64,000 nt of DNA from Nitrospirota bacterium (GTDB lineage Bacteria > Nitrospirota > JACRHJ01), in assembly GCA_963698885.1 (NCBI GenBank), contig CAVOSJ010000006.1, positions 325,186 through 389,185 on the forward strand. The letters run 5' to 3'. Position numbers and translations under genes: made by a program. Numbering within the stretch: position 1 is the stretch's first letter; each line of letters begins with the position of its first letter. Positions 22,529-59,690 of the stretch are shown piece by piece. A model generated the notes under the pieces. The model did not search any database. It saw nothing but the letters and a program-made list of their open reading frames with translations, and was not told where the DNA came from.

Positions 22529-22535
22529 GACTTAA

Positions 22536-25202: not shown

Positions 25203-25212
25203 AAAGACTTAA

Positions 25213-26743: not shown

Positions 26744-26746
26744 ACC

Positions 26747-31469: not shown

Positions 31470-31800
31470 GTCCCTTATCTTTTCCGTTCTTAATAACCCC
31501 TCTTGCTTAATTGGGCTAAGCCATCATCGGTTCACATTTATTCAAAAAAAATAAAAAAATCGACAAATTTTTTACGGTATCGAATTCATGACATCTCCAC
31601 GCTCGGCACAATGCATTTTAGGGGGTCAGGGGCGGGTTTTTGAGACGTGAGTTTTTGGGGAAATGCAGAGATTTTCCCAGATTTTAAATAGGGTTACGCC
31701 ACTATACTGCGGCAATTCCGAAATCGGGTTTTGCATTTCGCAAGTCATTGAAAAGTAAGGAATATTTTTAGCGAAAAAATGCGAAAAAACGCCGGGATTT
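31470..31800 (-). repeat. ~300 bp non-coding module A, homologous to 49141-49435 (opposite strand)
   Basis: by-eye alignment of A against the reverse complement of B: shared blocks CGGTATCGAATTCATG, GGGGGTCAGGG, CCGATGATGGCTT(A/G)GCC, ATAAATGTG, CATTGAAAA(G/T)TAA(G/A)G(A/G); roughly 70 percent identity. Confidence 0.75.
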
Positions 31801-31837
31801 CCAATTTTTGGGGAAATTCTCGCCAAATTATTAACGC

Positions 31838-35922: not shown

Positions 35923-35932
35923 TAAAACCTTT

Positions 35933-36027: not shown

Positions 36028-36031
36028 GAAT

Positions 36032-37492: not shown

Positions 37493-37506
37493 GGAACCTC
37501 CAGACC

Positions 37507-37604: not shown

Positions 37605-37607
37605 GGT

Positions 37608-38867
37608 TTATATATATTTTCTTGGGTCGGCAAGCTTCCCTTCGATGGCGGAGGCCGCGACCAGCGCGGGCGAGGCAAGGTAAACGAATGACTTGGGGTT
37701 TCCCATCCTGCCCTTGAAGTTCCGGTTTATGGAGGCGGCGCAGTTCTCGCCGTCGCCCAGGATACCTTCATGGCTTCCGGGGCATGCCCCGCATCCCGGC
37801 GAATTGATTACGCCGCCCGCATCCAGGAATATATCCATAAGACCTTCGGCCATCATCTTTCGATAGACGCTCTTGGTGCCCGGTGTTACGACGAGCCTTG
37901 AGCCGGGGGCGACATGCCTTCCCTTCAGCACCCTGGCCGCCGCCTCGAAATCCTCGAAATAACCGTTGGTCGTAGAGCCAAGGTACGCCTGCTGGATCGG
38001 GACGTCTTTGCAGTCCGGGTGCGAGATGGGCCTCGTGTTGTCCACCATGTGTGGGAAAGAGACCATCGGCTCAAGGCTGCCCGCGTCTATCTTGACTTCC
38101 CTGACGTACTTCGCGCCGGGGTCGCCCTTTATCTCCTTGAAATCACTCTCGCGCTTATTCTCGCGGAGCCAGTCCAGGGTATGCCCGTCCGATTCGAACA
38201 GGCCGCACTTCCCGCCGGCTTCCACGGCCATCGACGAAATAGTCGTCCTTCCGGGGATGGATAACCCCTCGATGGTATCCCCGAAGAACTCAAGGGACTG
38301 GTATGTCGCGCCGTCCGCGCCGATTAAGCCGATAAGGTAGAGGATGATGTCCTTGGAATATACCCCCGGCGAAAGCTTCCCGGTGACTTCCACCCGGATT
38401 GCCTCCGGGCACAGCATCCAGGTCTCGCCTGTGGCCATGGCGACCGCGATGTCAGTCGAGCCCATGCCGGTGGCGAAGGCACCCAATGCGCCGCCCTGGC
38501 AGGTATGGGAGTCCGCCCCGACCATCAGCATGCCGGGTGACGTGACCTGCTCGCCCAGGACCAGGTGGCTCACCCCGCCGCCTATGTCGGAGAGCATGCA
38601 GCCGGAGTCCCTGGCGTACTCGCGGAGCTTGACGTGCCCGGTGGAGACTTCCTTGAAGGAAGACGGGGAGGCGTGGTCTATAAATACGGCGGTATGGGAG
38701 GGGACTTTTGCAAGTCCCGCTCCCAGTTCCACAATCTTGTCAACCGTCAGGGGGCCGGTCCAGTCCTGCACGTAGGCGAAATCTACCTTCACCACGGTCA
38801 GCTCGCCTGCGTGTACCTCGTGCCCCGCATGCATGGAGATAAGTTTTTCAGCCAGGGTCAGCGGCAT
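37608..38867 (-). CDS. leuC: aconitase-family dehydratase large subunit (LeuC-like)
   Basis: about 420 aa; Fe-S ligand cysteines (CGACPGS region), aconitase fold blocks; start set at internal ATG 38867. Confidence 0.8.
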   Translation of the reverse strand: MPLTLAEKLISMHAGHEVHAGELTVVKVDFAYVQDWTGPLTVDKIVELGAGLAKVPSHTAVFIDHASPSSFKEVSTGHVKLREYARDSGCMLSDIGGGVSHLVLGEQVTSPGMLMVGADSHTCQGGALGAFATGMGSTDIAVAMATGETWMLCPEAIRVEVTGKLSPGVYSKDIILYLIGLIGADGATYQSLEFFGDTIEGLSIPGRTTISSMAVEAGGKCGLFESDGHTLDWLRENKRESDFKEIKGDPGAKYVREVKIDAGSLEPMVSFPHMVDNTRPISHPDCKDVPIQQAYLGSTTNGYFEDFEAAARVLKGRHVAPGSRLVVTPGTKSVYRKMMAEGLMDIFLDAGGVINSPGCGACPGSHEGILGDGENCAASINRNFKGRMGNPKSFVYLASPALVAASAIEGKLADPRKYI

Positions 38868-39728: not shown

Positions 39729-41262
39729 ATGGAGCATAACCCCTCAACCCGGAACCAGGAAGTAAATGACCGTAGACTGCTTGAGGCGAGCCTCGACCCG
39801 ATCGTGGCGATAAACCTGGAAGGCAAGTTCGCCTACGTCAATGAGGCTATGGTAAGGGTCACGGGCATCCAGAGGGACGCCCTCATCGGGTCGGACCATT
39901 ACGGCTATCTTAACCGAGCCCGAAAAGGGGAAGGAGGGCCTTCTGCAGGCTATAACGAAAGGGTCCATCACCGACTATCCCCTGACCTTCAAGCACACGG
40001 ACGGGCACCTGACGGACGTACTTTGCAACGCCTCCGTTTACCGCGATGAAGAGGGCAAAGTCGCCGGCATCTTCGCGGAGGTAAGAGATATTACCGAGAG
40101 AAAAAGGGCCGAAGAGGCCCTCCGAGAGGCCGAAGCATATAACAGGAGCCTGCTGGAGGCGAGCCTCGACCCGCTCGTGGCAATAAATCTGGAGGGCAAG
40201 TACGTGTACGTCAACGAGGCTACGGAGAAGGTCACGGGCCTTTCGAGGGACGCTCTGATAGGGTCGGACTTCACAGGCTACTTCACCGAGCCCGAAGAGG
40301 CGAGAAAGGGTTACTTGCTGGTTTTTGCGACAGGGTCCGTCACCGACTATCCCCTCACCATCCGGCACAAGGACGGGCATCTGACGGACCTGCTTTGCAA
40401 CGCCTCCGTTTACCGCGATGAATGGGGCAAAGACGCCGGCATCTTCGCGGTGTCGAGAGATATTACCGAGAGAAAACGGGCCGCCGAGGCTCTTCGAGAG
40501 GCCGCAGCGTATAACAGAAGCCTGCTGGAGGAGGTAAGAAAATTAAACCTGGAGCTGGAGCAGAGGGTACGCGACCGGACTGCCCAGTTAGAGTCCGCCA
40601 ACTGCGAACTGGAATCCTTCAGCTACTCGGTCTCCCACGACCTGCGCGCGCCCCTTCGGAGCCTGGACGGCTTTTCCCAGGCCATCCTGGAGGAATATTC
40701 GGACAGGTTAGATGAAAAAGGGAAAGACTACCTGGGAAGGATCCGGCTTGCCAGCCAGAGGATGGGCCATCTTATAGACGACATGCTGAAGCTATCCCGG
40801 GTGACAAGGAGCGAGATGCGCTTTGAAAACGTGGACCTGACGGGGATTGCGAGAGAAATAGGAGATGAACTGAGTAGGGCGGAGCCGGGGCGCAAGGTCG
40901 AATTCATTATAGAAGAAGGCGTCACGGCATGGGGCGACTTGCCGCTGCATGCGGATGGTTATGCAGAACCTGCTGTCGAATTCCTGGAAATTCACATCCA
41001 GGCACGAGAAGGGGGTAATACAGTTCGGCGTCTCGGAGATGGGGGGGAAGAAAATTTATTTCGTGAAGGACGACGGCGCCGGTTTTGACATGGACTATCC
41101 GACAAACTCTTTACCCCATTCCAGCGTCTGCATTCCACGGCGGAGTTTCCGGGGACGGGCATTGGCCTCGTAATCGCAAAAAGGATTCTAAAGCGGCACG
41201 GGGGCGAAATCTGGGCTACGGCGAAACCGGAAAAAGGGGCGACCTTTTATTTCTCATTTTGA
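39729..41262 (+). CDS. tandem-PAS sensor histidine kinase (PAS-PAS-HisKA-HATPase_c); at least three apparent indels (near 39912, 40940, 41108)
   Basis: ORFs 39711..40049, 40177..41088, 40949..41173 and the frame ending at 41262 piece together into one kinase (H-box [13 protein letters not shown]; G-box GTGIGL). Confidence 0.8.
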
Positions 41263-44028: not shown

Positions 44029-44117
44029 GTGAGGGGGCCTCCTTTTCTTTTCAATTATAGCAGACGCCATGCCGGATTATTGTTTTTATTGAGGTAAGGT
44101 GTTATTATCCGGCTTAT

Positions 44118-45335
44118 ATGGAACAGCTTCTGGAAATAATAAAAGAAGAAATCCGGACGGCGGGAAGGATTACCTTCGAGCGCTACGTGGAACTTGCGCT
44201 CTACCATCCCCGGTACGGCTACTACTCGTCCGGGGCGGCATCCATTGGCAAGGCGGGGGATTTCTATACCTCGTCGCAGGCCACCCGCATGTACGGGACG
44301 CTGATGGCCGAAGTCTATGTAAAGCTCGCGGAGAAGTCAGGTCCGGATTTTGTTGAGATGGGTGCGGGAGAGGGGCTGTTCGCGGCCGACTTCCTGCGCG
44401 CGCTTTCTAAGTCCCATCCGCTCGAATATGGGAAATGCCGGTATTTTATAGTGGAGAGCGCGGGAGGGATGGCGGCAAAACAGAAGGATGCGCTTTTAGA
44501 TTTTAGTGACAAAGTCACCTGGACTGAGGACTTAGACGGCCTGCCCGATATAGAGGGAATATTTTTTTCAAACGAGCTGGTCGATGCGTTTCCTTTTCAC
44601 AGGGTCAAACAGGGCCCGGACGGGCTGTCCGAAATTTACGTGTGCCTGCAAGGGGGGTCAAGTAGACAAGCGGGGCAAGCTGGGCAGGAGACGCAATGGG
44701 GGCAGGATGGGCCGGATGAGAAACTGGCCTTTGTGGCCGGGCCGCTCTCCACGCAGGAACTGGAGAAGCATTTCAAACGGCTGACGCCGAGACTGCCGGC
44801 GGGTATGATAACCGAGGCGAACCTCAGGGTTTCCGGGTGGATGGACAAGGTCGGCGGGAAGCTGAAGAAAGGTTTTGTTATCACGGTGGATTACGGGTAT
44901 ACCGCGGAGCAATATTACTCCCCCTCAAAGATGAACGGCACCGCGCTCTGCCATTACAGGCATTCAACCAACGAAGACTTTTTCGAGCGGGTCGGGGAGC
45001 AGGATATTACCGCGCACGTTGACTTTACCGCCATCGGCCTCGAAGGGAAAAACAGCGGCCTCGCCTCGGAGCTTTTCTGTGATCAGGGACAGTTCCTTAT
45101 GGAAACGCTGCCGTGGTTCGAGGACTCCGCCAGGCGTACAAATGCGTCTTTGGATGAGCTTATAGAGGCGGGGCAGGGAATAAAAACATTGCTCCATCCG
45201 GAATGGCTGGGAGGTGCGTTCAAGGTCCTGGTCCAGTCGAAAGAGTGTTCCCTGGACGGATTATTCGGCAGGATACGGAACAGGGTGGAAAGCTGCTCGA
45301 TAACTCCGGGCGTACGTATTGAAAGTAACGGATGA
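44118..45335 (+). CDS. MidA/NDUFAF7-family SAM-dependent methyltransferase (DUF185)
   Basis: 405 aa; ITFERYVELALYHPRYGYYSSG...GDFYTSSQ...typical of the family. Confidence 0.75.
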   Translation: MEQLLEIIKEEIRTAGRITFERYVELALYHPRYGYYSSGAASIGKAGDFYTSSQATRMYGTLMAEVYVKLAEKSGPDFVEMGAGEGLFAADFLRALSKSHPLEYGKCRYFIVESAGGMAAKQKDALLDFSDKVTWTEDLDGLPDIEGIFFSNELVDAFPFHRVKQGPDGLSEIYVCLQGGSSRQAGQAGQETQWGQDGPDEKLAFVAGPLSTQELEKHFKRLTPRLPAGMITEANLRVSGWMDKVGGKLKKGFVITVDYGYTAEQYYSPSKMNGTALCHYRHSTNEDFFERVGEQDITAHVDFTAIGLEGKNSGLASELFCDQGQFLMETLPWFEDSARRTNASLDELIEAGQGIKTLLHPEWLGGAFKVLVQSKECSLDGLFGRIRNRVESCSITPGVRIESNG

Positions 45336-46109
45336 AACTAGCCGCCTGAGTATAATTATCTGCTGGCCCGGTAATATATGGATGCCGCGCCGGCGAGGGA
45401 TTTTCCTTTGAAATCCAGGCGGTGCGACCACTTGACCTGCCTTGAGCCCGGCCATCTCCAGAAGGTTCAGCATCTCCGGTATCTTAAAGCAGTTGACCTC
45501 GAAAGCCTGGTCGTAGTTCTCCTTTACGAAATGTCCCTTCATCAGGACGGTCCCGTTATCTTCCTGAAGCTCCCGCTCCCAGATGACCGATATCTCGCCG
45601 GAGGCGTCCCGCACTATGATATTTTTGAAGAAGGGCTGAGACCAGTAGACCGCGTTGAAGACGAATGCGCCTCGCGGGGCAAGGAGCCTGCGGACCCTGT
45701 CGAAGACCACCACCAGCTGGCTTCTTTTGAGCTGGGATACCGTATTTCCGAGACTTATGACCAGGTTCTGGATCCCATAAGGCACCAGGCTATCGCTCTC
45801 TAAGTCGGAGAGGTGGAACTGCACGTTCGGAATGTCCACCGCCCGTTCCTTCGCGGCAATTAAGGCGGCTTCCGTGCGGGCCAGGCCGGTCACGGTAAAG
45901 CCGTTCCGGGCAAGGGCAATGGAATGAAGGCCCGGCCCGCATCCCAGTTCCAGAACGCGGCCCCCCCCGGGCGGCCGGCCGGCCGCTTCCCAGGTTTTTT
46001 TATACCAGAAAAGGATTTGCTCTACTTCGGCCTTTTCTTCTCCGTTGGAGTGATGGGCCTGCTCGAAAAGGTCCACCCGTTCCCTGTTTATTTTCAAAGA
46101 CTCAGCCAT
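45261..46109 (-). CDS. class I SAM-dependent methyltransferase
   Basis: VLELGCGPGLHSIALARNG SAM-binding motif; start set at ATG 46109. Confidence 0.75.
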   Translation of the reverse strand: MAESLKINRERVDLFEQAHHSNGEEKAEVEQILFWYKKTWEAAGRPPGGGRVLELGCGPGLHSIALARNGFTVTGLARTEAALIAAKERAVDIPNVQFHLSDLESDSLVPYGIQNLVISLGNTVSQLKRSQLVVVFDRVRRLLAPRGAFVFNAVYWSQPFFKNIIVRDASGEISVIWERELQEDNGTVLMKGHFVKENYDQAFEVNCFKIPEMLNLLEMAGLKAGQVVAPPGFQRKIPRRRGIHILPGQQIIILRRLVSSVTFNTYARSYRAAFHPVPYPAE

Positions 46110-46125
46110 ACACCCTCTCAAGGTC

Positions 46126-46218
46126 GTTACCTTTTTGGGAAAAAGGTAACACCAAAAACTTTTAAACTAAAAACAGTCCGGCTTTCTTTTGGTACTTTTC
46201 TTTCATCCAGAAAGTAAC
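46126..46218. repeat. mosaic palindromic intergenic repeat, copy 10
   Basis: GTTACCTTTTTGGGAAAAAGGTAAC ACCAAAAACTTTT ... GGTACTTTTCTTTCATCCAGAAAGTAAC. Confidence 0.9.
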
Positions 46219-46233
46219 AGTTACCGGCCTATC

Positions 46234-47016
46234 TTAAGCTGCGGCCCGGTAGCCCCATTTCATGAAATGGTCTTCCGTCCCTATCTCTCCCGACAACTCG
46301 TCCGACTGTTCCGACGCCAGAAAAACCGCCAGCTTCGCTACCTCGGACGGCTGCTTTAACTGGCCGGATTTTTTAAGGCCCCAGAAGACCCGGTATGCGT
46401 CCGGCCCCAGCACGTTCATGTCCAGCTTACGGATGTCGTCATGCATCCTGGTGTCCACGGAGCCGGGGTCCATCCCGTAAACTTTAATATTATACGGTTC
46501 GAGCTCCCGCGCCAGCGCCTTCGTCAGCGCGTTCAGCCCCGATTTAGATATGCTGTAGGCGCCCAGGCGCGGAATAACGAAGTCAGCCAGGCCTGAAGTA
46601 ATGTTTATTATCTTGCCGTAGCGTTTTTTAATCATACCCGGGATGCACGCCTTCGACAGGAGCCATGCGCCGGTGAGGTTAATATCCATGCAGCGGTGGA
46701 ACTCGGGGTCGGGAATATCCTTCATGGGGGCGATAGGGCCGGTTACCCCCGCGTTATTCACCAGTATGGAAGGCGGGCCGAACTTCATCTCCACCGCGCG
46801 GTAGAGGTTCTTTACGTCCCCCGGGTCGGACACGTCCGCTTTTATCGCGATGGCCTGCCCGCCCTTGTCCGCAATAATGGAAACCGTATCTTCCAGTTCC
46901 TCCCTGGTCCTGGAAGCAACCGCCACTTTCGCGCCAGCCTCAGCCAAGGCTACGGCAATTGCGCGCCCAAGACCCCGCCCGCCGCCGGTTACGACAGCAA
47001 TCCGCCTTTTGAGCAC
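46234..47016 (-). CDS. SDR-family oxidoreductase (short-chain dehydrogenase/reductase)
   Basis: VVTGGGRGLGRAIA cofactor motif, catalytic YxxxK region; GTG start at 47016 preceded by GGAGG. Confidence 0.85.
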   Translation of the reverse strand: MLKRRIAVVTGGGRGLGRAIAVALAEAGAKVAVASRTREELEDTVSIIADKGGQAIAIKADVSDPGDVKNLYRAVEMKFGPPSILVNNAGVTGPIAPMKDIPDPEFHRCMDINLTGAWLLSKACIPGMIKKRYGKIINITSGLADFVIPRLGAYSISKSGLNALTKALARELEPYNIKVYGMDPGSVDTRMHDDIRKLDMNVLGPDAYRVFWGLKKSGQLKQPSEVAKLAVFLASEQSDELSGEIGTEDHFMKWGYRAAA

Positions 47017-47134
47017 GCTACCTCCTCTTCGGCTGATGGAAATGGGAAAAAAGGGAACAGCGGTAAAGTTCCCCCCATTCAAATAATAATCGAGCGGGGG
47101 CGACTTGTCAAAAAAGGGGGGAAAAGGGGGGAAT

Positions 47135-48229
47135 TTATTTAATCTCGATTTCGGCTTCGGAAACTTTTACCGGCTCCGCGCTCTTTGCCGGTATCCCTAA
47201 CTTCGCGGCCGCGGCGGGGGTAACCAGCCGGTAATAAAGGGCGGCCTTAGCCTTCGCCGCACCCTTCGGCAGGTCGTATGTCAGCGCCCGCTCCTCGTGG
47301 TCTTTTATCCTTGAATCAAGCGCCTCTTTCGCCTCCCAGGTCGGCACGCCGACCTTGCCGTCCGCGCTGAATACGCGCATGAACAGCTCTTTCTGGCCGG
47401 CCGCGGGGGCGGGGCTCTCGAAGAGGGGCTTCCCCTCTTTATCGAGGACTAAAACTTTCAGATATGCCGCACGCATCGGGTTCGTGGACGGGAAAAAGTG
47501 CGGGTTGTCGTTTTTGACGATTACTATCAGCTTACCCATCTCCGCACCCAGGGAAAGGGAGATACCTTTCTTCAGCATCTCTTTATCATGTCCGCCCGGG
47601 AAAAAGTGGGAGTAGTGCGAGCTTTTAGCCGAGCCTTCGGCGGGCGGGCCCGCTTTTTCTTCCATGTGGCACTTGACGCAGTTTGAGTATCCTTCCAGGT
47701 CCGCGCTGCATATTACCGTCCCTTTGCCGTTCACCATCTTGCCGTGGCAGCCAAGGCACATCATGAACGGCTGGGCGAACGACCACTGGCTTACCTTGTG
47801 CGGCGCCTGCTGCGCCGAAGGAGCGGTTATGGTGGTGGCGAGGTTGTAGGTGTTGAACATTTTCCCTTCCGAAACGCCCTCGGCGCCGTGGCAGAACGTG
47901 CAGGGTATGCCTGGCATTGACGAAGAGGTCTTTGCCATGGCTTCCGACGCGGGGTTATGACAGCTTGCGCAGAAATAGGGCGCTTTTTTGCCCGTTTTGG
48001 CCATAGCCTGGGAAAATGCGGAGAAGACGGCGTTGTGGGCGGGATCGGAGGCCCTGGACGACTGCGCGTGCATGGACGCGCCCCACTCGTCATAGATGGT
48101 CTTATGGCACGGGGCGCAAGAGGCCGAATCCGCAAAACCCTTGAACCCCGCCGGATACTGGTGCGCAAATGCCCCGGAAGGCAGGATTGCCAGAAAAATA
48201 AAAGCCAACAGGATTTTGCCCGCCCTCAT
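47135..48229 (-). CDS. multiheme c-type cytochrome (five CxxCH motifs), secreted
   Basis: signal peptide MRAGKILLAFIFLAILPSGAFA; CAPCH, CASCH, CTFCH, CLGCH, CVKCH. Confidence 0.85.
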   Translation of the reverse strand: MRAGKILLAFIFLAILPSGAFAHQYPAGFKGFADSASCAPCHKTIYDEWGASMHAQSSRASDPAHNAVFSAFSQAMAKTGKKAPYFCASCHNPASEAMAKTSSSMPGIPCTFCHGAEGVSEGKMFNTYNLATTITAPSAQQAPHKVSQWSFAQPFMMCLGCHGKMVNGKGTVICSADLEGYSNCVKCHMEEKAGPPAEGSAKSSHYSHFFPGGHDKEMLKKGISLSLGAEMGKLIVIVKNDNPHFFPSTNPMRAAYLKVLVLDKEGKPLFESPAPAAGQKELFMRVFSADGKVGVPTWEAKEALDSRIKDHEERALTYDLPKGAAKAKAALYYRLVTPAAAAKLGIPAKSAEPVKVSEAEIEIK

Positions 48230-48522
48230 CCTTCGGTCTCCTCCTCAGCCTGTATCTTTACCTGGTCGCCGGGGTGGATCATCTCCTTGAACTCGGGCAT
48301 GACCTCCGCCGCGAGCGCGTAGTAGCTGCGCTGGTTCTTGATGAACCTGTCGGAGGTTTCGTCGTAGACCTTGTCGAAGAGGGTCGAGCCGCATGTCGGG
48401 CAGGTGATAACCGCATGGCCCCTCTCGTCAAAGCAGAGAAAAGACATCACGTGCGCCCCGCAGAGCCTGCACGGTGTTATAATGAGTTCCGGGCATGTAG
48501 TCATAACTATAAAGTCTATCAC
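48226..48522 (-). CDS. small Cys-rich (zinc-ribbon-like) protein, start overlapping the cytochrome gene (ATGA)
   Basis: CxxC...CxxC pairs (CRLCGAH...CPTCGSTL); 4-nt overlap with cytochrome start suggests translational coupling; start position uncertain. Confidence 0.4.
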   Translation of the reverse strand: MIDFIVMTTCPELIITPCRLCGAHVMSFLCFDERGHAVITCPTCGSTLFDKVYDETSDRFIKNQRSYYALAAEVMPEFKEMIHPGDQVKIQAEEETEG

Positions 48523-48680
48523 GAAAAAAAATCAGGTTCAACGTCAAATAAGCTTTATAGCCATATAAAAATGTGGTATTTGAAGGGGCCTGCATGGGCG
48601 GATCTACCGCAACGGGAAAATTGTCGTCACAGTGCATAAAATTTATTGACTGCGTATTTAGATTATGCGTAAATAATCAA

Positions 48681-48926
48681 ATGGCGCCAAAACAAAAAAA
48701 TCAGCGAAAATTGCCCCCGGGTTTGAGAGCGGCAGTTGAGACGAGTTTTATCGTTTTTCTCTTTTATTCCAACCTTCTGATGGGAGAATTTACTCATACC
48801 AACGGACAAGGAAAGAGTTTGTTTTTTGCTGTTCAGGATATTTTTACGGTTGCTAATTTTGTAATTGCCATCATCACCGCGCTGATCGGTTATATAGTTG
48901 TTGAATTTCTTAGAAAGAAATTATAA
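48681..48926 (+). CDS. small membrane protein, hypothetical (AT-rich)
   Basis: ORF from ATG 48681 (MAPKQKNQRK...), two hydrophobic segments; no family recognised. Confidence 0.3.
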   Translation: MAPKQKNQRKLPPGLRAAVETSFIVFLFYSNLLMGEFTHTNGQGKSLFFAVQDIFTVANFVIAIITALIGYIVVEFLRKKL

Positions 48927-49020
48927 TGACCCATAGTTTTGAAATGCGTTTCCAGCACGAAACATGGGATATGTACTAAGCACCCCCGCCACACCTAACT
49001 CGAATCTTTCACTTTAATAC

Positions 49021-49096
49021 CGCCGCTTAATCTGCTAAACTTTCCTCTATATGAAATCCGCAATCTTAATCAGCCCCGGCGTGATGTATAAACCGC
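49021..49096 (+). repeat. left direct repeat: duplicated 5' end (upstream region + first 12 codons) of the Zn-ADH gene
   Basis: shares an identical 37-nt core TATGAAATCCGCAATCTTAATCAGCCCCGGCGTGATG with 51292-51328 plus similar flanks; encodes MKSAILISPGVM then diverges to a stop. Confidence 0.85.
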
Positions 49097-49140
49097 TGTT
49101 TATTTTTCGCGCGGAACGTTGAAAATCAGTTCAGGCCGCG

Positions 49141-49435
49141 CGAAAATACCTTTAATTTTCAATAACTTCTAAAAGTGCAAAGCGTGATTTCCATGCCGCC
49201 GAAATTGGCCGAAAAGTGGACGTAACCATATGTAAAACAAGGGTAAAAATACCGCCGCCCCATTAAAAACATATGCCTCCAAAACCCATCCCTGACCCCC
49301 CAAAATCGCCGCATTTACCCTGACAACCCCCCATGAATTCGATACCGCATGAAATTCGTTGATTTTTCCATTTATATATGGATAAATGTGGGCCGATGAT
49401 GGCTTGGCCGATTAAGGAGGAATAGCTATTAAAAG
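49141..49435 (+). repeat. ~300 bp non-coding module B, homologous to 31470-31800 (opposite strand); contains TTGATT-17 nt-ATAAAT promoter-like hexamers and the REase RBS
   Basis: by-eye alignment to the reverse complement of module A (see module A entry). Confidence 0.75.
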
Positions 49436-49449
49436 CAGGGAGGAAAGTT

Positions 49450-50052
49450 TTGCAAATAACTCGCAACAAACCCGATGACAGCAAATTCAATCAAGAAGCT
49501 TTATTGCCATACGAACTGAGGCTGAACGACTTCGAAATGGCAATGCAAGATGTATACGACTTCTTCTATGATGTGAATTTATTTTTAACGAAGAAGGGGC
49601 TCTTAAGACTGGATGACATGCTCCGGCCCGCAATTATGTCCGGTGTGTTATCGGATATGCTTACCGCGAGTCTTGCTAAACATTCGCGGGTACTTAAGGA
49701 AAATAAATTTTTTAATGGTCATCCAGACCTCGTGGTACAGGGTATATATCCGGATAACGCAGTCAAGGCCGGGACGGAGGGTGTTGAAATAAAAAGTACG
49801 CGCAAGGCGGGTGGCGCTGTTGACACTCATGGCGCGAGAGATCAGTGGATGTGCGTATTCGTCTATGATATTGACTGCGTGACCGAACCTGCCGGAGACA
49901 GAACGCCAATGGCGTTCACGGAAATATATCTCGGCAAGGTAACAGTTGAAGATTTCAGGCGCAATCTCCGTGGCGAACTCGGCACCAGGACAGCCACCCT
50001 TCATCGTGAAGGGATTATAAAACTTCGCCAGAACTGGATATATCGGATTTAG
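49450..50052 (+). CDS. putative type II restriction endonuclease (PD-(D/E)xK-like)
   Basis: 200 aa; GHPDLVV ... EGVEIKSTRK fits PD...ExK spacing; convergent with and 3'-overlapping the adjacent DNA methyltransferase; TTG start after GGAGG. Confidence 0.55.
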   Translation: MQITRNKPDDSKFNQEALLPYELRLNDFEMAMQDVYDFFYDVNLFLTKKGLLRLDDMLRPAIMSGVLSDMLTASLAKHSRVLKENKFFNGHPDLVVQGIYPDNAVKAGTEGVEIKSTRKAGGAVDTHGARDQWMCVFVYDIDCVTEPAGDRTPMAFTEIYLGKVTVEDFRRNLRGELGTRTATLHREGIIKLRQNWIYRI

Positions 50053-51211
50053 CGTTTGATTTGAAATCCGTAAGTTTAGGAATTGCAGTACGCGCAATAT
50101 CGAAATAGTGACGGTCTTTTTCGATGCCGATACTTTGATAACCTATAGCTTCTGCGGCCGCAAGAGTTGACCCGGCCCCGGCAAACGGGTCAAGTATTAC
50201 TCCCTCCCCGAGCGGGAGGACGCCACGTATAACTTGCCGCAGAAATGCCTGTGGTTTAAGGCTTGGATGTGGTGCAAGGGCCCGCTCGTTTTTTTGGGTA
50301 GGCGCGGACTGTATCACGTCCCCGAAAGGCTTGTCCGCAGAAGGGCGGCGAAATCCGCCTGTTTTCCATTTTCTAAGATTATCCTGAGCTCTTCCTTCCA
50401 AAGGTTTTCGGAATAATATCCAAGGCTCCCACATTGAACGCGGCATTACGCTTATTTCCTCAAATTCAGTGTGAGCATGTTTCGGACGATCTCCCCCACG
50501 CATAGTCATTACTAGACGAATAATCTCGCCGCGTCTTTCCAGGCCGGCATCTGCCAAAGCATTAGATAGGATATATGAAAGAAGGGGGTTGGAAGCCACC
50601 AAGACGTTTGCGCCGGGTACGAGTTTCGGTAGCAGAAGCCTCGCCCAAACGAAGAAAAAGGCGCTCAATCGCTCACGCTGGTCATCCGTAAGAGTTGTAA
50701 ATCTAGGAAGCGGAGACCTCGTATGGCCATCAAAGGAAGGCGGAATACGCCAGACCCCCCCTTTTCGGTTACGCAATTTTAATTGTTGGTCAGGCGTATA
50801 TTCATGAAGTCCGTAAGGGGGGTCTGTTACCACCGCATGTATACTCTGATCCTGCCTCTTCTCAATCCAGTCAAAACAGTCTCCATGGTATAGAGTAGTT
50901 CTGCCTAATACAAATGGCTGTTCCATTTCGGAGTGATATGAAAAATCGCGATGCATTTCTCCGGCATGCTGTTGCCGGACGCGGTATACGCCTCGACCTT
51001 CTTTGATAAAAAGCGAGGGAGTATTAAGACGGAGATAAGACCGGACGGATGAAGCAGGGGTCGGCCCCATTATCTTGTTTATTCTTTCTTCAATTTGCAT
51101 AATGGAAAGCGCTTCGGAAGTTAGCGACAGCACTTGTAAGATGGCATCGCGCACGCGTCCGGGTGCATATCTTTTTTCGGTTGATTGCATGAATAAAATA
51201 TAAACGTCCAA
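50015..51211 (-). CDS. DNA methyltransferase, beta-class amino-methyltransferase (N6-adenine or N4-cytosine)
   Basis: 398 aa; motif IV DPPY (TDPPYG) precedes motif I FAGAGST. Confidence 0.85.
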   Translation of the reverse strand: MDVYILFMQSTEKRYAPGRVRDAILQVLSLTSEALSIMQIEERINKIMGPTPASSVRSYLRLNTPSLFIKEGRGVYRVRQQHAGEMHRDFSYHSEMEQPFVLGRTTLYHGDCFDWIEKRQDQSIHAVVTDPPYGLHEYTPDQQLKLRNRKGGVWRIPPSFDGHTRSPLPRFTTLTDDQRERLSAFFFVWARLLLPKLVPGANVLVASNPLLSYILSNALADAGLERRGEIIRLVMTMRGGDRPKHAHTEFEEISVMPRSMWEPWILFRKPLEGRAQDNLRKWKTGGFRRPSADKPFGDVIQSAPTQKNERALAPHPSLKPQAFLRQVIRGVLPLGEGVILDPFAGAGSTLAAAEAIGYQSIGIEKDRHYFDIARTAIPKLTDFKSNAKSDISSSGEVL

Positions 51212-51240
51212 ACGTCTTTTGTCAAGGATTAAATTACGCG

Positions 51241-51340
51241 CGCCGCATCTTTAATCTTTTGCTTTTCAAGCCAGTTCTGCTAAAATCTCCTTATGAAATC
51301 CGCAATCTTAATCAGCCCCGGCGTGATGGAAATAAACCGC
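51241..51340 (+). repeat. right direct repeat: authentic promoter-proximal region and 5' end of the Zn-ADH gene
   Basis: partner of 49021-49096; contains the true ADH start codon at 51293. Confidence 0.85.
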
Positions 51341-52319
51341 AAGGCCCCGGTGCCTTCGCCCGGGCCGGGCGAGGTCGTCGTGCAGGTGAAGGCGGCGCTC
51401 ACCTGCGGCACGGACATAAAGGCATATCTCAGGGGCCATCCGAAGATACCGATGCCCTCGCCGCTCGGGCACGAGTTCTCAGGCGACATCTATAAAATCG
51501 GCGAAGGGGTGGAAGGCTGGGCGGAGGGCGATGCTGTAATGGCGGTGCATTCCGCGCCGTGCGGCGAGTGCGCGTTCTGCAAGATGGGCAGGGAGAACCT
51601 CTGCACGACCATAATGGACGAAAAAGTCCTGGGTGCGTATGCGGACTTCATAAAGCTCCCGGCGCGCGTCGTGAAGCAGAACATGTTCAAAAAGCCCGAG
51701 TCGCTCCCCTATCCGGAGGCGGCGATGCTGGAGCCGCTCGCGTGCGTCGTGCACGGGTACCGCATGACGGAGGCCGAGAAGCCGAAGAGCGTCCTGATAC
51801 TTGGCGCGGGGCCGATAGGGCTTCTGCACCTGATGCTGCATAAGAAAAACGGCGCGAAGGTCATCCTCGCGGGCAGGAGGGCCGACCGGCTTGAGACGGC
51901 GAAGGACCTGGGCGCGGACGCCGTGCTGGAAGGCGACCTCCAGGACATCGCATGGAAGGTAACCGAAGAGACCGAGGGGCTCGGCGCGGACCTTGTCATC
52001 GAAGCGACCGGGAACAAGGACCTCTGGGAGAACTCGCCGTCCCTTGTGAGACGCGGCGGGACGGTACTGCTGTTCGGGGGCTGTCCCTCCGGCACGCGCG
52101 CCTGTTTCGACGCCGGACGCGTCCATTACGACGAGATAAAGCTGATGGGCGCGTTCCATTTCACGCCCTCGGACGTCAAGGCGGCTTTCGAGCCTCCTGA
52201 CAGCCGAAAGGTTAAACGTCTCCAAACTAATCTCGGGAAGGTATAACCTGGACGACCTTCAGATAGCGTTCGACGAGCTTATCGGCGGCCGAGGGATAAA
52301 GTTCGCGATAATACCGTAA
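51293..52319 (+). CDS. zinc-dependent alcohol dehydrogenase (MDR family); apparent frameshift near 52200
   Basis: GHEFSGD catalytic-zinc motif, structural-zinc Cys cluster (CGECAFC), GAGPIGL Rossmann; C-terminus continues in shifted frame (...YNLDDLQIAFDELIGGRGIKFAIIP). Confidence 0.85.
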
Positions 52320-52322
52320 ACC

Positions 52323-52399
52323 GTTACCTTTTTTGTAAAAAGGTAACGCCAAAAACTTTTGGACGTTTTTGGCTCCACCTTTTTCCGTAAAAAGGTGGA
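52323..52399. repeat. mosaic palindromic intergenic repeat, copy 11 (P - linker - P-variant)
   Basis: GTTACCTTTTTTGTAAAAAGGTAAC GCCAAAAACTTTT ... CCACCTTTTTCCGTAAAAAGGTGG. Confidence 0.85.
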
Positions 52400-56165: not shown

Positions 56166-56227
56166 TAGCCTTATTCCCTTGACTTAACCCCTTAAATTTT
56201 ATAAAATTTCAATCTTGTTACCAGTTT

Positions 56228-56264
56228 AAAAGTTTTTGGCGTTACCTTTTTCCAAAAAGGTAAC
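56228..56264. repeat. mosaic palindromic intergenic repeat, copy 12 (linker + P hairpin only)
   Basis: AAAAGTTTTTGGC GTTACCTTTTTCCAAAAAGGTAAC. Confidence 0.85.
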
Positions 56265-56281
56265 AGGTTTAAGGAGTTGTT

Positions 56282-56750: not shown

Positions 56751-57530
56751 ATGTCCATACTCGCGCATCTGGACGAGCTCCGGAAGCGGCTTGTCTATAC
56801 CGTCATCGTGCTTTTCATAGCCTTTCTGGTCTGTTTCCAGTACTGGGAATACCTGCTCCGCTGGATGAAGGTCCCGCTGACCCTGGTGCTTACGGTAAAG
56901 ACCACATATCCCTTCGTGTTCCCGACGTACCTGCCCAGCCCCACGAAGCTCATAGCCGTCGCTCCGGGCGAGGTGTTCTGGATAGCGCTGAAGATCGCCT
57001 TTATCGCCAGCATCTTCCTCTCGCTGCCTTTCATCCTCGCCCAGGTATGGCTCTTCATTGCGCCCGGGCTATTGCCCAAGGAACGCAAATGGGCGCTGCC
57101 TTTCGTCTTCTCGGCGACGTTCATGTTCGTCCTCGGGGCGCTGTTCTGCCAGTACGTCGTCCTGCCGTTTGCGATGCGGTTTCTGCTGACATACGGCATA
57201 GAAGAAGTGACCCCGATGATTACGATCAAGGAATATATCGATTTCTGCGGTAAGTTCCTGCTCTCGTTCGGCCTGGTTTTCGAGCTTCCTCTTATCATAA
57301 CGCTCCTTTCGCGCCTGGGTCTCGTCACGCCCCAGTTCCTTGCCAAGAACAGGAAGTTCGCCATACTCATCGCCTTCATCGCGGCGGCCATCCTTACCCC
57401 GACCCCCGACATGTTCAACCAGACCCTCATGGCGGTGCCCATAATACTGCTCTACGAGGTAGGCATCCTCATGGCCAGGATTACCAGGAGGCGAAAGGAT
57501 AACGCGGCCGAGGCGGAGACGGATTTATAA
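56751..57530 (+). CDS. tatC: twin-arginine translocase subunit TatC
   Basis: LAHLDELRKRL N-terminal motif, six TM helices; start set at ATG 56751. Confidence 0.9.
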   Translation: MSILAHLDELRKRLVYTVIVLFIAFLVCFQYWEYLLRWMKVPLTLVLTVKTTYPFVFPTYLPSPTKLIAVAPGEVFWIALKIAFIASIFLSLPFILAQVWLFIAPGLLPKERKWALPFVFSATFMFVLGALFCQYVVLPFAMRFLLTYGIEEVTPMITIKEYIDFCGKFLLSFGLVFELPLIITLLSRLGLVTPQFLAKNRKFAILIAFIAAAILTPTPDMFNQTLMAVPIILLYEVGILMARITRRRKDNAAEAETDL

Positions 57531-57534
57531 ACCT

Positions 57535-57629
57535 GTTACCTTTTTGGAAAAAGGTAACGCCAAAAACTTTTAGGGTTAAACACCCCAGCTTTCTTTTGTG
57601 TTACTTTTCTTTCCCGAAAGAAAAGTAAC
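57535..57629. repeat. mosaic palindromic intergenic repeat, copy 13
   Basis: GTTACCTTTTTGGAAAAAGGTAAC GCCAAAAACTTTT ... GTTACTTTTCTTTC-CC-GAAAGAAAAGTAAC. Confidence 0.9.
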
Positions 57630-57646
57630 GACTTTCCATTTTACCC

Positions 57647-57675: not shown

Positions 57676-57915
57676 CGCAAAAATTTAATATTCTTCCGAA
57701 GCCGGACCGCCCTACAGTCTTTTCGCAGGGGCCAGGGGTCCCGGCCGACAGGGTCGCATCCGAAAGGGTGCGGTCTCCCATAGAAGCCGGTTACCGGTTT
57801 TGGAAAGGAGGGCAAGCTCGCGGCAAGGCACCTCTTTATTCAAAGAAGGCGCCTTTTTTTATTTCGAACTGTTTTCATTATTTTTTAGCAGGCAATCCGA
57901 AAGGGGAACTCCGTT

Positions 57916-59589
57916 ATGAGGCTGATATCGGTTTTAACGTCTTCATTATTAATCCTGCTCTTATCCGTGAGCGCCGCTTTTGCCGACGGACAGAAGGTCA
58001 CAAGCGACCTGCTGGACGTGCTTAAGGCAAAGGGCGTGTTAGACGACGCGTCTTACGACAGCCTGAAGAAAAAAGAGGCCGCCTCCCCGACCCCGGCGGC
58101 GAGTACACTACAACTTCTCGATGTCCTTAGGGCGAAGGGCGTGCTGGGCGAGGAGGACTACAACAGGCTGTCCAGGGAGGCCGCGCCCACAGCCGTCCCG
58201 GCAGTCGCAACCAACCCCGCACCCGCGGCCGTGCCCGTGGCGGAAACCGTAACCGCGCCCGAGCCAGCTACAGCGCCCGCGCCGACTGCCGCGGCATCGC
58301 CCGGAGGGCCGGAAAGGCCGATAGACGGTACCCTGACAAAGGTTGAAGATAGTTTCGCGAGGGTGACGGGGGATATTGTAAGGCTGAAAATCGGCGGCTA
58401 CTTACAGGCCGGCTATTTAAACGACGACGCAGGCTTCTCTTACGGCGCGCCGCCTAATAACTTGTTCAGCCCGACCTCCGGCAATCAGTTCTTCGTCAGG
58501 CGGGCAAGGCTCATTTTCGATTTCGGCGTGGGCCCGAAGGTGGGCGCGCGGGTCTCGATTGAGCCAGCGGTCGACCTCAACACGGCAAGCACGACCAGCG
58601 GCGGCAGGAGCATCCTCCGGGACGCCTATGGCTGGACCGACTACATCCCTTATACAAGAATAACCCTGGGCCAGTTCAAGACCCCGTTCGGACTGGAGGG
58701 CGTGGAGTCGTTATCGGACAACCCCACGATTAACCGCTCCATGGTCACGAACCTTGTGCACTACCCGCTCCTCAGGGACATAGGCGTCATGGCCGCCTGG
58801 AACTTCAAAACGGATGTCTCTGGCCTGCCGCTTGGCGCGCAATGGGCGGTGGCGCTCGTCAACGGCACGGGATACAACCTCCCGGACGACAACGACCAGA
58901 AAGACCTCGTGTTCAGAGGGACAGTCAATCCGCTTGTGGAAGGCCTTAACATCGGAGGTTCTCTCTATGGGGGCAAGACGCACGTAACGCCGGCTGCGGG
59001 CGCCGCCTTCAATAAATACCACGACAGCTGGGCCGCCGAGGCCGAGTATGTCCCGCCCTTCCTGAAAGGCTTGAAGCTCAGGGGCGAATATCTCTGGAAC
59101 AGGCAGTACTATACCAAATATTACAGCTACGCGAGCGTTACAGGCACGGCCAGCAACACCCCGCCCGCTACCGCGTCTACAGTGGGGACCCTCCCCAATA
59201 ACCCCAGCACTGCAAACGCCGCCCGCACGGTCCATACCGCCGGATGGTATGCGCTGGCGGTTTACAGGGTGGACGGACTGCAGGGCATCGGGAGCTACCT
59301 TAACGGCCTTGAGCCCCTTGTACGCTACGACACCATGAACGAGGACGAGGACGGGACTCCCTGGGTATTTACCAGCGGCTCGGGCGCTGCAACGAAGACA
59401 CTCACAGTCAATTCGCACACCAGATACCGTACAACGGTGGGTCTAAACTACTACTTCAATAATTACGCGCGGCTGATGCTGGACTACGAGATGATACATG
59501 CGGACGCGGGCCTCAGGAGGGCTTCAATAGAGTCCATAGACCTTATATCGCACCGCCTCTTCACGACGCTCTTGCAGGTGAAGTTTTAA
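57916..59589 (+). CDS. outer-membrane beta-barrel porin (possibly phosphate-selective OprO/P-like)
   Basis: signal peptide ...VSAAFA; Ala/Pro-rich linker; beta-rich body ending in C-terminal Phe (...LQVKF). Confidence 0.5.
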   Translation: MRLISVLTSSLLILLLSVSAAFADGQKVTSDLLDVLKAKGVLDDASYDSLKKKEAASPTPAASTLQLLDVLRAKGVLGEEDYNRLSREAAPTAVPAVATNPAPAAVPVAETVTAPEPATAPAPTAAASPGGPERPIDGTLTKVEDSFARVTGDIVRLKIGGYLQAGYLNDDAGFSYGAPPNNLFSPTSGNQFFVRRARLIFDFGVGPKVGARVSIEPAVDLNTASTTSGGRSILRDAYGWTDYIPYTRITLGQFKTPFGLEGVESLSDNPTINRSMVTNLVHYPLLRDIGVMAAWNFKTDVSGLPLGAQWAVALVNGTGYNLPDDNDQKDLVFRGTVNPLVEGLNIGGSLYGGKTHVTPAAGAAFNKYHDSWAAEAEYVPPFLKGLKLRGEYLWNRQYYTKYYSYASVTGTASNTPPATASTVGTLPNNPSTANAARTVHTAGWYALAVYRVDGLQGIGSYLNGLEPLVRYDTMNEDEDGTPWVFTSGSGAATKTLTVNSHTRYRTTVGLNYYFNNYARLMLDYEMIHADAGLRRASIESIDLISHRLFTTLLQVKF

Positions 59590-59595
59590 AGAGCT

Positions 59596-59679
59596 GTTAC
59601 CTTTTTGAAAAAAGGTAACGCCAAAAACTTTTAGTCCGGCTTTCTTTTGGTACTTTTCTTTCACCTGAAAGAAAAGTAC
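59596..59679. repeat. mosaic palindromic intergenic repeat, copy 14
   Basis: GTTACCTTTTTGAAAAAAGGTAAC GCCAAAAACTTTT ... GGTACTTTTCTTTC-ACCT-GAAAGAAAAGTAC. Confidence 0.9.
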
Positions 59680-59690
59680 GAGGTACTATA

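What the first reader, a model, noticed from the sequence alone, without database searches (positions are those of the whole stretch)
49021..51340. Restriction-modification cassette inserted into the 5' end of the Zn-ADH gene with a ~75 bp long target duplication
The first 12 codons and upstream region of the alcohol dehydrogenase gene (51241-51340) are present a second time at 49021-49096, sharing an identical 37-nt core (TATGAAATCCGCAATCTTAATCAGCCCCGGCGTGATG). The 2.1 kb between the copies is lower in GC and holds a convergent PD-(D/E)xK-like endonuclease and a beta-class amino-methyltransferase. No transposase, integrase or short terminal inverted repeats are present, and a duplication this long is not what DDE transposition produces. 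It matches the insertion-with-long-target-duplication pattern reported for R-M genes in Helicobacter pylori genome comparisons. The upstream ADH copy would also place the endonuclease downstream of a duplicated host promoter.
Basis: partly seen in the sequence, partly recalled or inferred. Interest (0 to 1): 0.8.

Follow-up and report, generated by a model that had tools for sequence, protein, structure and literature searches.

The report
Restriction cassette between duplicated gene starts
A two-gene restriction-modification (DNA-defence) cassette sits just upstream of an alcohol-dehydrogenase gene in a Nitrospirota genome, flanked by two copies of that gene's first 50-100 bases; this pattern is already known for such cassettes, but here the two copies come from two different versions of the locus, which hints at how the pattern arises.

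Summary
A 37-nt exact repeat (49050-49086 and 51292-51328; 0 expected by chance) extends to about 110 nt and flanks an intact Type II R-M pair: R (49450-50052) and M (51190-50015). R has the fold of EcoRV/NaeI-type restriction enzymes. M is a beta-class amino-methyltransferase.

The locus meets the published criteria for "R-M insertion with long target duplication". The same R-M family is also flanked by 44-120 nt repeats of unrelated host DNA in three other genomes.

Related genomes complicate the story:
- The closest relative carries the same module at the same place without the upstream copy. It has a native transporter gene there instead.
- The upstream copy is the right end of a 510-bp low-GC block that replaced that transporter gene. 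It carries a different allele of the ADH leader.
- Another relative has the same kind of two-copy arrangement around a glycosyltransferase gene, not an R-M system.

The repeat is therefore best read as a junction between two haplotypes of a hypervariable hotspot, made by one homologous crossover plus one illegitimate joint. It is a new member of a known kind, of moderate interest. A conserved 350-nt non-coding element ahead of R remains unexplained.

The parts
48584..49093 (+). 510-bp low-GC block found only in the window. It replaces the ArsB/CitMHS-like transporter gene of the closest relative. Its right end is the upstream ADH copy. It also holds a 117-aa ORF (48573-48926) with no family match.
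   Evidence: Window/L010 homology stops at 48583 and resumes at 49092. Three-way alignments with the outgroup L005 show that the transporter gene is ancestral at this position. GC is 38.8%. No Pfam, NCBIfam or PADLOC hit.
48986..49096 (+). Upstream (truncated) copy of the ADH 5' region: an A-type leader, the ATG at 49051, 12 ADH codons, then a 2-nt indel and ATAAACCGC.
   Evidence: nhmmer with the ADH-leader profile gives E = 3.8e-14. Alignments. Its leader is 42/51 identical to the functional ADH leader of L004. It translates to a 23-aa peptide.
49050..49086 (+). Left copy of the 37-nt identical core.
   Evidence: Exact match; 0 expected by chance.
49094..49149 (+). Spacer shared only with L010, where it starts about 15 nt after the transporter gene's stop codon. 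It holds the hairpin CGCGCGG-N21-CCGCGCG. Its left edge (AAACCGC|TGTTT) is the novel joint.
49150..49449 (+). Element E, a conserved non-coding sequence that ends at R's Shine-Dalgarno site (the nhmmer profile match spans 49100-49449). It holds a near-invariant block with the palindrome CCATTTAT-N6-ATAAATG. Function unknown.
   Evidence: nhmmer finds copies in the window at 49100-49449 and 31829-31473 (minus strand), in L010, in L001:1-253 and in L011. Alignments. No Rfam match. The consensus fold is weak.
49450..50052 (+). R: a 200-aa PD-(D/E)XK restriction endonuclease (HPD at residues 91-93, E-I-K at 113-115), with a TTG start preceded by GGGAGGAAAG.
50015..51190 (-). M: a 391-aa beta-class N6/N4 amino-methyltransferase (DPPY at residue 123, FAGAGS at 336) with an N-terminal extension of about 100 aa.
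   Evidence: PF01555. PADLOC MTase_II PDLC03215, E = 1.7e-107. PDB sequence relatives are CcrM, DpnA, MboIIA and RsrI. Motif positions.
51197..51225 (-). M promoter: TTGACA, a 17-nt spacer holding two GACGT(T/C) repeats, then TATATT. The ATG lies 6 nt after the -10 box, so the mRNA is probably leaderless.
   Evidence: The promoter scan matches 11 of 12 positions. The architecture is conserved in L010, L012, L017 and L027.
51244..51292 (+). B-type ADH leader, with the likely ADH promoter (TTGCTT-16-TGcTAAAAT, 6 nt before the ATG). Every close relative has different DNA to the left of this point.
   Evidence: 53/53 identical to L002, 50/53 to L001 and 47/53 to L010. Alignment. The promoter assignment is my reading of the sequence.
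51292..51328 (+). Right copy of the 37-nt identical core, at the start of the full-length ADH gene.
51293..52320 (+). Zn-dependent alcohol dehydrogenase gene. It is read as 317 aa because of a 1-nt frameshift near codon 300; relatives are 341 aa.
   Evidence: Pfam ADH_N and ADH_zinc_N. Homologues are 341 aa. Frame comparison.
31473..31829 (-). Second copy of element E. It lies between the 3' end of trpS and an 830-nt, 33% GC block of small ORFs, ahead of a pirin gene.

Best explanation
What it is. An intact Type II restriction-modification module lies in a hypervariable hotspot immediately 5' of the Zn-ADH gene of a Nitrospirota genome. The hotspot coincides with one end of an old 4.5-kb inversion.

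How the repeat arose (inferred). The direct repeat is the seam between two alternative haplotypes of that hotspot:
- an R-M-free haplotype (low-GC block, A-type leader, ADH), kept only up to about ADH codon 16 (+45);
- an R-M-bearing haplotype (spacer, element E, R, M, B-type leader, ADH), kept whole.

Two joints made the seam. One is a homologous crossover inside the 37-nt stretch where the two haplotypes were identical. The other is an illegitimate joint, AAACCGC|TGTTT. Two routes give this product:
(a) A fragment carrying R-M and about 50 nt of the ADH start was re-circularised and integrated by a single crossover.
(b) A fragment of the R-M-free haplotype entered a genome that already carried R-M by homology-facilitated illegitimate recombination. 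It replaced the transporter gene but not the R-M.

Either way the product is an R-M pair flanked by a long duplication of the target, and ADH stays intact under the leader that came with the R-M haplotype. This is the outcome class called 'insertion with long target duplication'.

How the module works (partly inferred). M is transcribed from its own conserved promoter as a probably leaderless mRNA. Its N-terminal extension probably binds the two GACGT repeats in the promoter spacer. R is read from upstream, through element E.
For: Shown:
- The repeat is real and far beyond chance.
- R and M are intact, and each is identified by fold or by family.
- L010 shares both flanks at 94-95% identity and carries the same spacer-E-R-M module (window 49092-51239). 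It lacks the upstream copy and has an ArsB-like transporter gene there instead.
- The outgroup L005 keeps the first and last ~100-150 nt of that transporter gene next to the same neighbouring gene, so the transporter is ancestral and the window's 510-bp block is derived.
- The repeat is a mosaic. The upstream copy has an A-type leader (42/51 to L004's ADH leader) and the ADH has a B-type leader (53/53 to L002). Yet the 36 coding nt are identical in both copies and specific to this lineage: 35/36 with L010 but only 26-30/36 with L001, L002, L004 and L007.
- L004 shows the reciprocal arrangement (B-type fragment, cargo, A-type leader, ADH) around a non-R-M gene.
- The site is hypervariable. L001 has E plus two small ORFs; L002 and L003 have a D12-class DNA MTase gene; L010 has 5 kb of extra 46% GC cargo.
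- Other members of this R-M family have long flanking repeats. Best flank-to-flank scores are 56-86 bits, against a control median of 20 and 95th percentile of 26 (n = 160).

Precedent:
- Single-crossover integration of partly degraded, re-circularised DNA gave 109-950-bp duplications of the homologous locus in E. coli. HFIR typically couples an insertion of about 1 kb with a deletion of about 1 kb (PMC3240628).
- Furuta et al. note that most hosts showing this pattern are naturally competent (PMC2853133).
Against: - Neither parental haplotype was found as such. No genome with the window's left flank directly followed by the low-GC block, an A-type leader and a full ADH was recovered.
- The direction of the event, route (a) or route (b), cannot be decided.
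- The microhomology at the illegitimate joint is only 2 nt (GC), below the 3-10 bp usually reported for HFIR.
- E and M differ more between the window and L010 (88.8% and 86.4%) than the flanks do (about 95%). The two genomes therefore may not have inherited one and the same insertion.
- A 37-nt stretch is near the lower limit for RecA-type crossovers (own knowledge).
- The upstream copy is seen in a single assembly, and that assembly has apparent indel errors.
- The repeats in L012 and L027 show no extended diverged homology that would mark a two-haplotype origin.
Confidence: 0.55

Rival explanations
1. Classical 'insertion with long target duplication'. The E-R-M unit inserted into the ADH 5' end of this lineage and duplicated about 50-100 nt of local sequence in one event (staggered breaks or double-strand-break repair). 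The leaders diverged or were converted afterwards, and L010 later lost the left copy.
For: All the formal criteria of Furuta et al. that could be tested are met: R and M are in the insert, the insert is under 20 kb, the repeat exceeds 30 bp, and there are no mobility genes. Three other genomes carry the same R-M family between long repeats: L027 47 nt at 98%, L012 about 44 nt, L017 about 120 nt at about 82%. Six related genomes have a single ADH 5' copy.
Against: The two leaders are different allelic types, not decayed copies of one sequence, while the adjacent 37 nt are identical. Two extra events are needed: a precise loss of the left copy in L010, and replacement of the transporter gene in the window. 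L004 has the same kind of duplication around a non-R-M gene.
Confidence: 0.2
2. Site-specific integration. The ADH 5' core is an attachment site used by a recombinase encoded elsewhere, and element E is the conserved end of a family of integrase-less cargo elements that are mobilised in trans.
For: An identical core flanked by diverged arms is what att sites look like. The site has been used repeatedly by different cargo. E leads unrelated low-GC cargo at three independent places, always in the same orientation as the first cargo gene.
Against: No integrase or recombinase is annotated within about 10 kb in the window's relatives. The duplicated segments differ between cases: about -55 to +45 in the window, -20 to +15 in L004, and only leader sequence in L010. 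The second E copy has no flanking repeat. The same R-M family is flanked by repeats of unrelated sequences elsewhere, which argues against a fixed att site. E was not found in three public collections.
Confidence: 0.1
3. Assembly artefact: a chimeric join of two co-existing strains in a metagenome assembly.
For: The upstream copy is seen in one assembly only. That assembly shows apparent frameshifts in ADH, trpS and DUF58, which suggests a noisy long-read consensus. Two haplotypes of the locus clearly circulate.
Against: A switch between strains inside the shared 37-nt core would continue into ADH, not into the spacer and E. The joint AAACCGC|TGTTT must therefore exist in real DNA. The spacer-E-R-M order is confirmed independently in L010 and L011. 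The two copies differ outside the core, so this is not a collapsed or expanded repeat.
Confidence: 0.05

Closest known systems
R-M 'insertion with long target duplication' (Nobusato et al. 2000, Gene 259:99; Furuta, Abe and Kobayashi 2010, NAR 38:2428, PMC2853133)
   Same: A small R+M unit with no mobility genes and lower GC than the host, flanked by direct repeats longer than 30 bp that span the start of the target gene and leave that gene intact. The target is single-copy in relatives.
   Different: The two repeat copies come from different alleles of the locus. No exact empty site was found. The nearest relative has the R-M without the left repeat. At the same site a non-R-M gene is flanked in the same way. 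The host is a Nitrospirota MAG; no Nitrospirota host appeared in the parts of that survey I read.
Homology-facilitated illegitimate recombination, and single-crossover integration of re-circularised DNA (de Vries and Wackernagel 2002, from own knowledge; Amarir-Bouhram et al. 2011, PMC3240628)
   Same: One homologous joint and one illegitimate joint. An insertion of about 0.5 kb is coupled with a deletion of about 1.4 kb if the R-M-bearing genome was the recipient. If a circle integrated instead, the homologous segment is duplicated.
   Different: Inferred from sequence only. The microhomology is 2 nt and the homologous crossover segment is only about 37-50 nt. Competence of this organism is unknown.
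Type IIP R-M systems with EcoRV/NaeI-like endonucleases and beta-class amino-methyltransferases (for example M.RsrI, M.MboIIA, CcrM-type)
   Different: R shows no sequence similarity to any solved structure, Pfam, NCBIfam or PADLOC model. Recognition site and methylated base are unknown. M has an N-terminal extension of about 100 aa and a conserved, probably leaderless promoter.
The same R-M pair on small ColE1-type mobilisable plasmids of Enterobacteriaceae (for example pCAV1321-4938, NZ_CP011607.1)
   Same: R is about 68% identical and is annotated 'hypothetical protein'. It is convergent with a 372-aa 'DNA methyltransferase' gene.
   Different: The plasmid copies have no flanking long repeats.

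Membership tests
Type II restriction-modification system | DNA methyltransferase with a catalytic (D/S)PP(Y/F) motif and an FxGxG AdoMet-binding motif | tested here: met
   DPPY at residue 123 and FAGAGS at residue 336 of the 391-aa M. PF01555, E = 2.4e-16. PADLOC MTase_II, E = 1.7e-107.
Type II restriction-modification system | Adjacent gene encoding an endonuclease with a restriction-enzyme fold | tested here: met
Type II restriction-modification system | Sequence-specific cleavage that is blocked by the cognate methylation | not testable with these tools
   Needs a methylome or enzymology. GACGTC, the motif repeated in the M promoter, is not avoided in the window (22 observed against 14.7 expected). 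That gives no support for it as the recognition site.
Beta-class amino-methyltransferase | Circular permutation in the order motif IV (DPPY), target-recognition domain, motif I (FxGxG) | tested here: met
   DPPY at residue 123 precedes FAGAGS at 336. The nearest solved relatives are the beta-class enzymes CcrM, DpnA, MboIIA and RsrI.
R-M insertion with long target duplication (criteria of Furuta et al. 2010) | Both an R and an M homologue lie inside the inserted segment | tested here: met
   R at 49450-50052 and M at 50015-51190 lie between the repeats.
R-M insertion with long target duplication (criteria of Furuta et al. 2010) | Insert shorter than 20 kb, with no other mobile-element genes | tested here: met
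   About 2.15 kb. The only other content is element E. No transposase or integrase.
R-M insertion with long target duplication (criteria of Furuta et al. 2010) | Direct repeat of the target longer than 30 bp | tested here: met
   37 nt identical, 42 nt at 95%, and about 52 nt with one indel.
R-M insertion with long target duplication (criteria of Furuta et al. 2010) | A related genome has an empty site: both flanks align and the repeat is present once | tested here: inconclusive
   The ADH 5' region is single-copy in L001, L002/3, L005, L007, L008/9 and L010. None of these joins the window's left flank directly to it. L010 has the R-M but lacks the left repeat.
DDE transposon / insertion sequence | Transposase gene, terminal inverted repeats and a short (2-14 bp) target duplication | tested here: not met
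   No transposase. No terminal inverted repeats above background. The repeat is at least 37 nt.
Integrase-mediated genomic island | Tyrosine or serine recombinase gene in or beside the island, with a fixed att core | tested here: not met
   No such gene is annotated in the syntenic 20-kb loci L005 and L010. The duplicated segments differ between the window, L004 and L010.
Homology-facilitated illegitimate recombination product | One homologous joint plus one illegitimate joint with 3-10 bp of microhomology; an insertion coupled with a deletion of similar size | tested here: inconclusive
   Relative to L010, 0.51 kb was gained and 1.38 kb lost. The microhomology at the joint is only GC, 2 nt. 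The parental haplotypes were not recovered.
Known structured RNA (for element E) | Match to an Rfam covariance model, or a covariation-supported fold | tested here: not met
   No Rfam match at gathering score or at E <= 5 beyond noise. The consensus fold is -23 kcal/mol over 335 columns, with 3 compensated pairs from 3 sequences.

The most novel reading that the evidence does not exclude
The mosaic repeat may record how 'long target duplications' around R-M systems arise in general. The idea is recombination between R-M-bearing and R-M-free alleles of one locus: a homologous crossover at one end and illegitimate joining or re-circularisation at the other. Loss of the R-M kills the cell, so only products that keep the R-M survive, and these carry a duplicated target.

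This unannotated endonuclease family has thousands of members across phyla and is repeat-flanked in 4 of 5 chromosomal contexts examined. It could therefore provide the data to settle that long-open mechanism. Separately, element E could be the conserved leading end of an undescribed family of integrase-less cargo modules in Nitrospirota.
Probability: 0.2. Interest if true: 0.7.

Novelty: new member of a known kind. Interest (0 to 1): 0.45.

Why it matters
R-M systems behave as mobile, selfish defence genes. How units that carry no transposase or integrase enter chromosomes with 30-400-bp target duplications has been unexplained since 2000.

This locus adds a Nitrospirota example in which the two repeat copies carry different alleles. 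That points to recombination between haplotypes rather than a transposition-like staggered cut.

It also flags a very large restriction-endonuclease family that is uniformly annotated 'hypothetical' and has no domain model. The family is repeatedly found between long host-derived repeats, so many insertion sites are available for comparison.

In practical terms, the work shows a strain-variable defence hotspot next to a housekeeping-type gene, at an inversion breakpoint, in an uncultivated lineage.

Tried and rejected
- Exact look-ups of the window's ADH and R proteins found nothing. For R this is probably because the TTG start translates as L; the identical protein P0121 is on record, on a contig of 411,921 nt.
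- Pattern scans for element E gave 0 hits in genome contigs, one chance hit inside an unrelated coding region in metagenome contigs (L006), and 0 hits in viral contigs.
- A pattern scan for the ADH leader plus start in genome contigs gave only two chance hits, L013 and L014. GTDB r220 therefore holds no close relative.
- E as a known or structured RNA: rejected for lack of evidence.
- E as coding sequence: rejected, because the copies differ by indels of 1, 2 and 8 nt.
- GACGTC as the recognition site: not supported.
- A suspected remnant of L001's second small ORF at window 48930-48978 was not significant (tblastn E = 0.23) and was dropped.
- A test for extended diverged homology beyond the repeats in L012, L017 and L027 found nothing significant. 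The test also failed on the window's own leaders, so its power is low.
- The 18-nt inverted pair 49030-49047 / 49440-49457 was judged to be at chance level.
- PADLOC, Pfam and NCBIfam gave nothing for the small cargo ORFs of L001, of window 30.6-31.1 kb, or for the 117-aa ORF.
Full report
**1.
The 37-nt sequence TATGAAATCCGCAATCTTAATCAGCCCCGGCGTGATG occurs exactly twice in the window, at 49050-49086 and 51292-51328. None of 100 shuffles produced a match, even with 3 mismatches allowed. The repeat finder extends it to 42 nt at 95%. After a 2-nt indel, ATAAACCGC matches as well. A profile built from eight ADH 5' regions recognises the upstream copy over 48986-49096 (E = 3.8e-14).

The upstream copy carries the ATG and 12 ADH codons and would encode only a 23-aa peptide. 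The interval between the copies is 47% GC against 56-62% for the flanks.

**2. The two genes are a Type II R-M pair.**
- M (51190-50015, 391 aa) matches PF01555 and a PADLOC Type II MTase model (E = 1.7e-107). DPPY at residue 123 precedes FAGAGS at 336, which is the beta-class order. Its nearest solved relatives are CcrM, DpnA, MboIIA and RsrI.
- R belongs to a very large family. All 8000 scored candidates were significant, with about 80% identity across Chloroflexota, Planctomycetota and others. Every member is unnamed. The family also occurs on small ColE1 plasmids of Klebsiella, Citrobacter and Raoultella.
- In every context examined, R is convergent with the same kind of MTase gene.
- The M promoter is conserved across phyla: TTGACA, a 17-nt spacer with two GACGT(C/T) repeats, TATAYT, then the ATG 6-7 nt later. 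This implies a leaderless mRNA.
- That the roughly 100-aa N-terminal extension of M binds those repeats is my inference. GACGTC is not depleted in the window.

**3. Relatives show a hotspot, not a simple filled or empty site.**
ADH homologues place the window in Nitrospirota. To the left of a conserved leader of about 52 nt, every close relative carries different DNA:

| Locus | What lies upstream of ADH |
|---|---|
| L001 | element E plus two small ORFs |
| L002 / L003 | a D12-class DNA MTase gene |
| L004 | a Glyco_transf_20 gene |
| L007 | an unrelated ORF |
| L005, L008 (more distant) | a Methyltransf_28 gene |

Window 44075-48555 is inverted relative to L005 and L008, and the right end of that inversion is the hotspot itself.

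**4. The closest relative is the most informative.**
L010 shares the left flank (95.5%), the ADH (95.4%) and the right flank (94.4%). It also has the same module, window 49092-51239, with E at 88.8%, R at 94.5% and M at 86.4%. It has no upstream ADH copy.

In place of window 48584-49093, L010 has an ArsB/CitMHS-like transporter gene of native GC. The outgroup L005 retains the start and the end of that gene beside the same neighbouring gene. The transporter is therefore ancestral, and the window's 510-bp low-GC block, whose right end is the upstream ADH copy, is derived.

L010 also has 5 kb of 46% GC cargo between the R-M and ADH. That cargo is flanked by a degenerate piece of the leader.

**5. 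The repeat is a mosaic.**
- The leader of the upstream copy is of a type seen as the functional ADH leader in L004 (42/51 identical).
- The leader in front of the window's ADH is 53/53 identical to that of L002.
- The 36 coding nt are identical in both copies and specific to this lineage: 35/36 with L010, but only 26-30/36 with L001, L002, L004 and L007.
- L004 has the mirror arrangement. A fragment of the B-type leader plus 5 codons (707-742) is followed by the glycosyltransferase gene, then an A-type leader and ADH.

**6. Interpretation.**
The simplest account is a recombinant between two haplotypes of the hotspot. They are joined by one homologous crossover inside the 37-nt identical stretch and by one illegitimate joint, AAACCGC|TGTTT. 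I cannot tell which haplotype was the recipient.

Experimental precedent exists for both routes (PMC3240628). Partly degraded, re-circularised DNA integrated by a single crossover and duplicated 109-950 bp of the homologous locus. HFIR couples an insertion of about 1 kb with a deletion of about 1 kb.

This is compatible with the descriptive class 'insertion with long target duplication' (PMC2853133). The criteria of that class are met here, except for a clean empty site.

**7. The class assignment gains support from other members of the family.**

| Locus | Repeat flanking the R-M | Source of the repeat |
|---|---|---|
| L027 | 47 nt, 98% | 3' end of a DUF4186 gene |
| L012 | about 44 nt | terminator hairpin |
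| L017 | about 120 nt, about 82% | intergenic |

Best flank-to-flank scores are 56-86 bits, against a control median of 20 and a 95th percentile of 26. In all of these cases the insert has lower GC than its flanks. L010 and four plasmid contexts lack such repeats.

**8. Element E is unexplained.**
E (about 49100-49449) also occurs at 31829-31473 and in L001. Each time it lies directly upstream of low-GC cargo and in the same orientation as that cargo. It is not a known RNA, has no convincing fold and is not coding. It was not found in three public collections.

**9. Caveats.**
- The upstream copy is seen in one assembly only, and that assembly has apparent frameshifts in ADH, trpS and DUF58.
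- A chimeric join at the shared core could not create the core-to-spacer joint, so I consider an artefact unlikely.
- Mechanism and direction of the event are inferred, not shown.

Noticed in passing
window 49100-49449 and 31473-31829 (minus strand); L001:1-253; L010:9651-10000: A conserved non-coding element of about 350 nt (E) sits directly upstream of unrelated low-GC cargo: R-M here, small ORFs in L001, and small ORFs between trpS and a pirin gene in the window. It has a near-invariant block containing the palindrome CCATTTAT-N6-ATAAATG. It has no Rfam match and was not found in three public collections.
   Followed up: partly
window 44075-48555, compared with L005:6209-9879 and L008: This block (Methyltransf_28, SDR, multihaem cytochrome, small ORF) is inverted relative to more distant relatives. 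One breakpoint coincides with the ADH-upstream hotspot where the R-M sits.
   Followed up: partly
L004:707-742 and 3263-3297: A related genome has a 35-nt direct repeat of the ADH leader and start that flanks a 2.5-kb Glyco_transf_20 gene of native-like GC (55.8%). The leader types are swapped relative to the window.
   Followed up: partly
L010:11794-16753: A 5-kb, 46% GC insert (SDR, FAD_binding_4, UbiA and TPR genes) lies between the R-M and ADH in the closest relative. It is bordered by a degenerate piece of the ADH leader (about 11822-11855).
   Followed up: no
window 11465-11580, 16465-16570, 17612-17728, 18583-18668, 22420-22538, 25093-25223, 26744-26842, 35913-36036, 37498-37613, 46117-46222, 52314-52384, 56222-56274, 57524-57635, 59585-59681: A dispersed family of palindromic intergenic repeats of about 100 nt, with about 14 copies in 64 kb. 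One copy lies immediately downstream of ADH. The family is also present in L001, L007 and L010.
   Followed up: no
window 52195 (ADH), about 32190 (trpS), about 53100 (DUF58): Apparent single-base frameshifts split ADH (317 aa against 341 aa), the essential trpS gene, and the DUF58 gene. These are more likely consensus indel errors than pseudogenes.
   Followed up: partly
window 51197-51225 (minus strand); L010, L012, L017, L027: The M promoter is conserved across phyla: TTGACA, a 17-nt spacer with two GACGT(C/T) repeats, TATAYT, then the ATG after 6-7 nt. This implies a leaderless mRNA and a likely operator for the N-terminal extension of M.
   Followed up: partly
window 57682-57826 (+): Molybdenum/tungsten cofactor riboswitch (RF01055, 44.2 bits). 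It is the only Rfam match in the window. No tRNA genes are present in the 64 kb.
   Followed up: no
window 39759-40159 and 40132-40531: A tandem duplication of about 400 nt at 82% identity.
   Followed up: no
L033 (Logan SRR29900437 contig, 2147 nt): This contig begins and ends with the same 26 nt of the 47-nt repeat that flanks the R-M in L027-type genomes. That is what a graph assembler produces for a repeat-bounded insert. It would also fit a circular or tandemly amplified form.
   Followed up: no
L002:1-342 (minus strand): In a relative whose ADH is 96% identical, a D12-class (Dam-like) DNA adenine methyltransferase gene occupies the position taken by the R-M in the window (PF02086, E = 4.9e-21).
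   Followed up: partly
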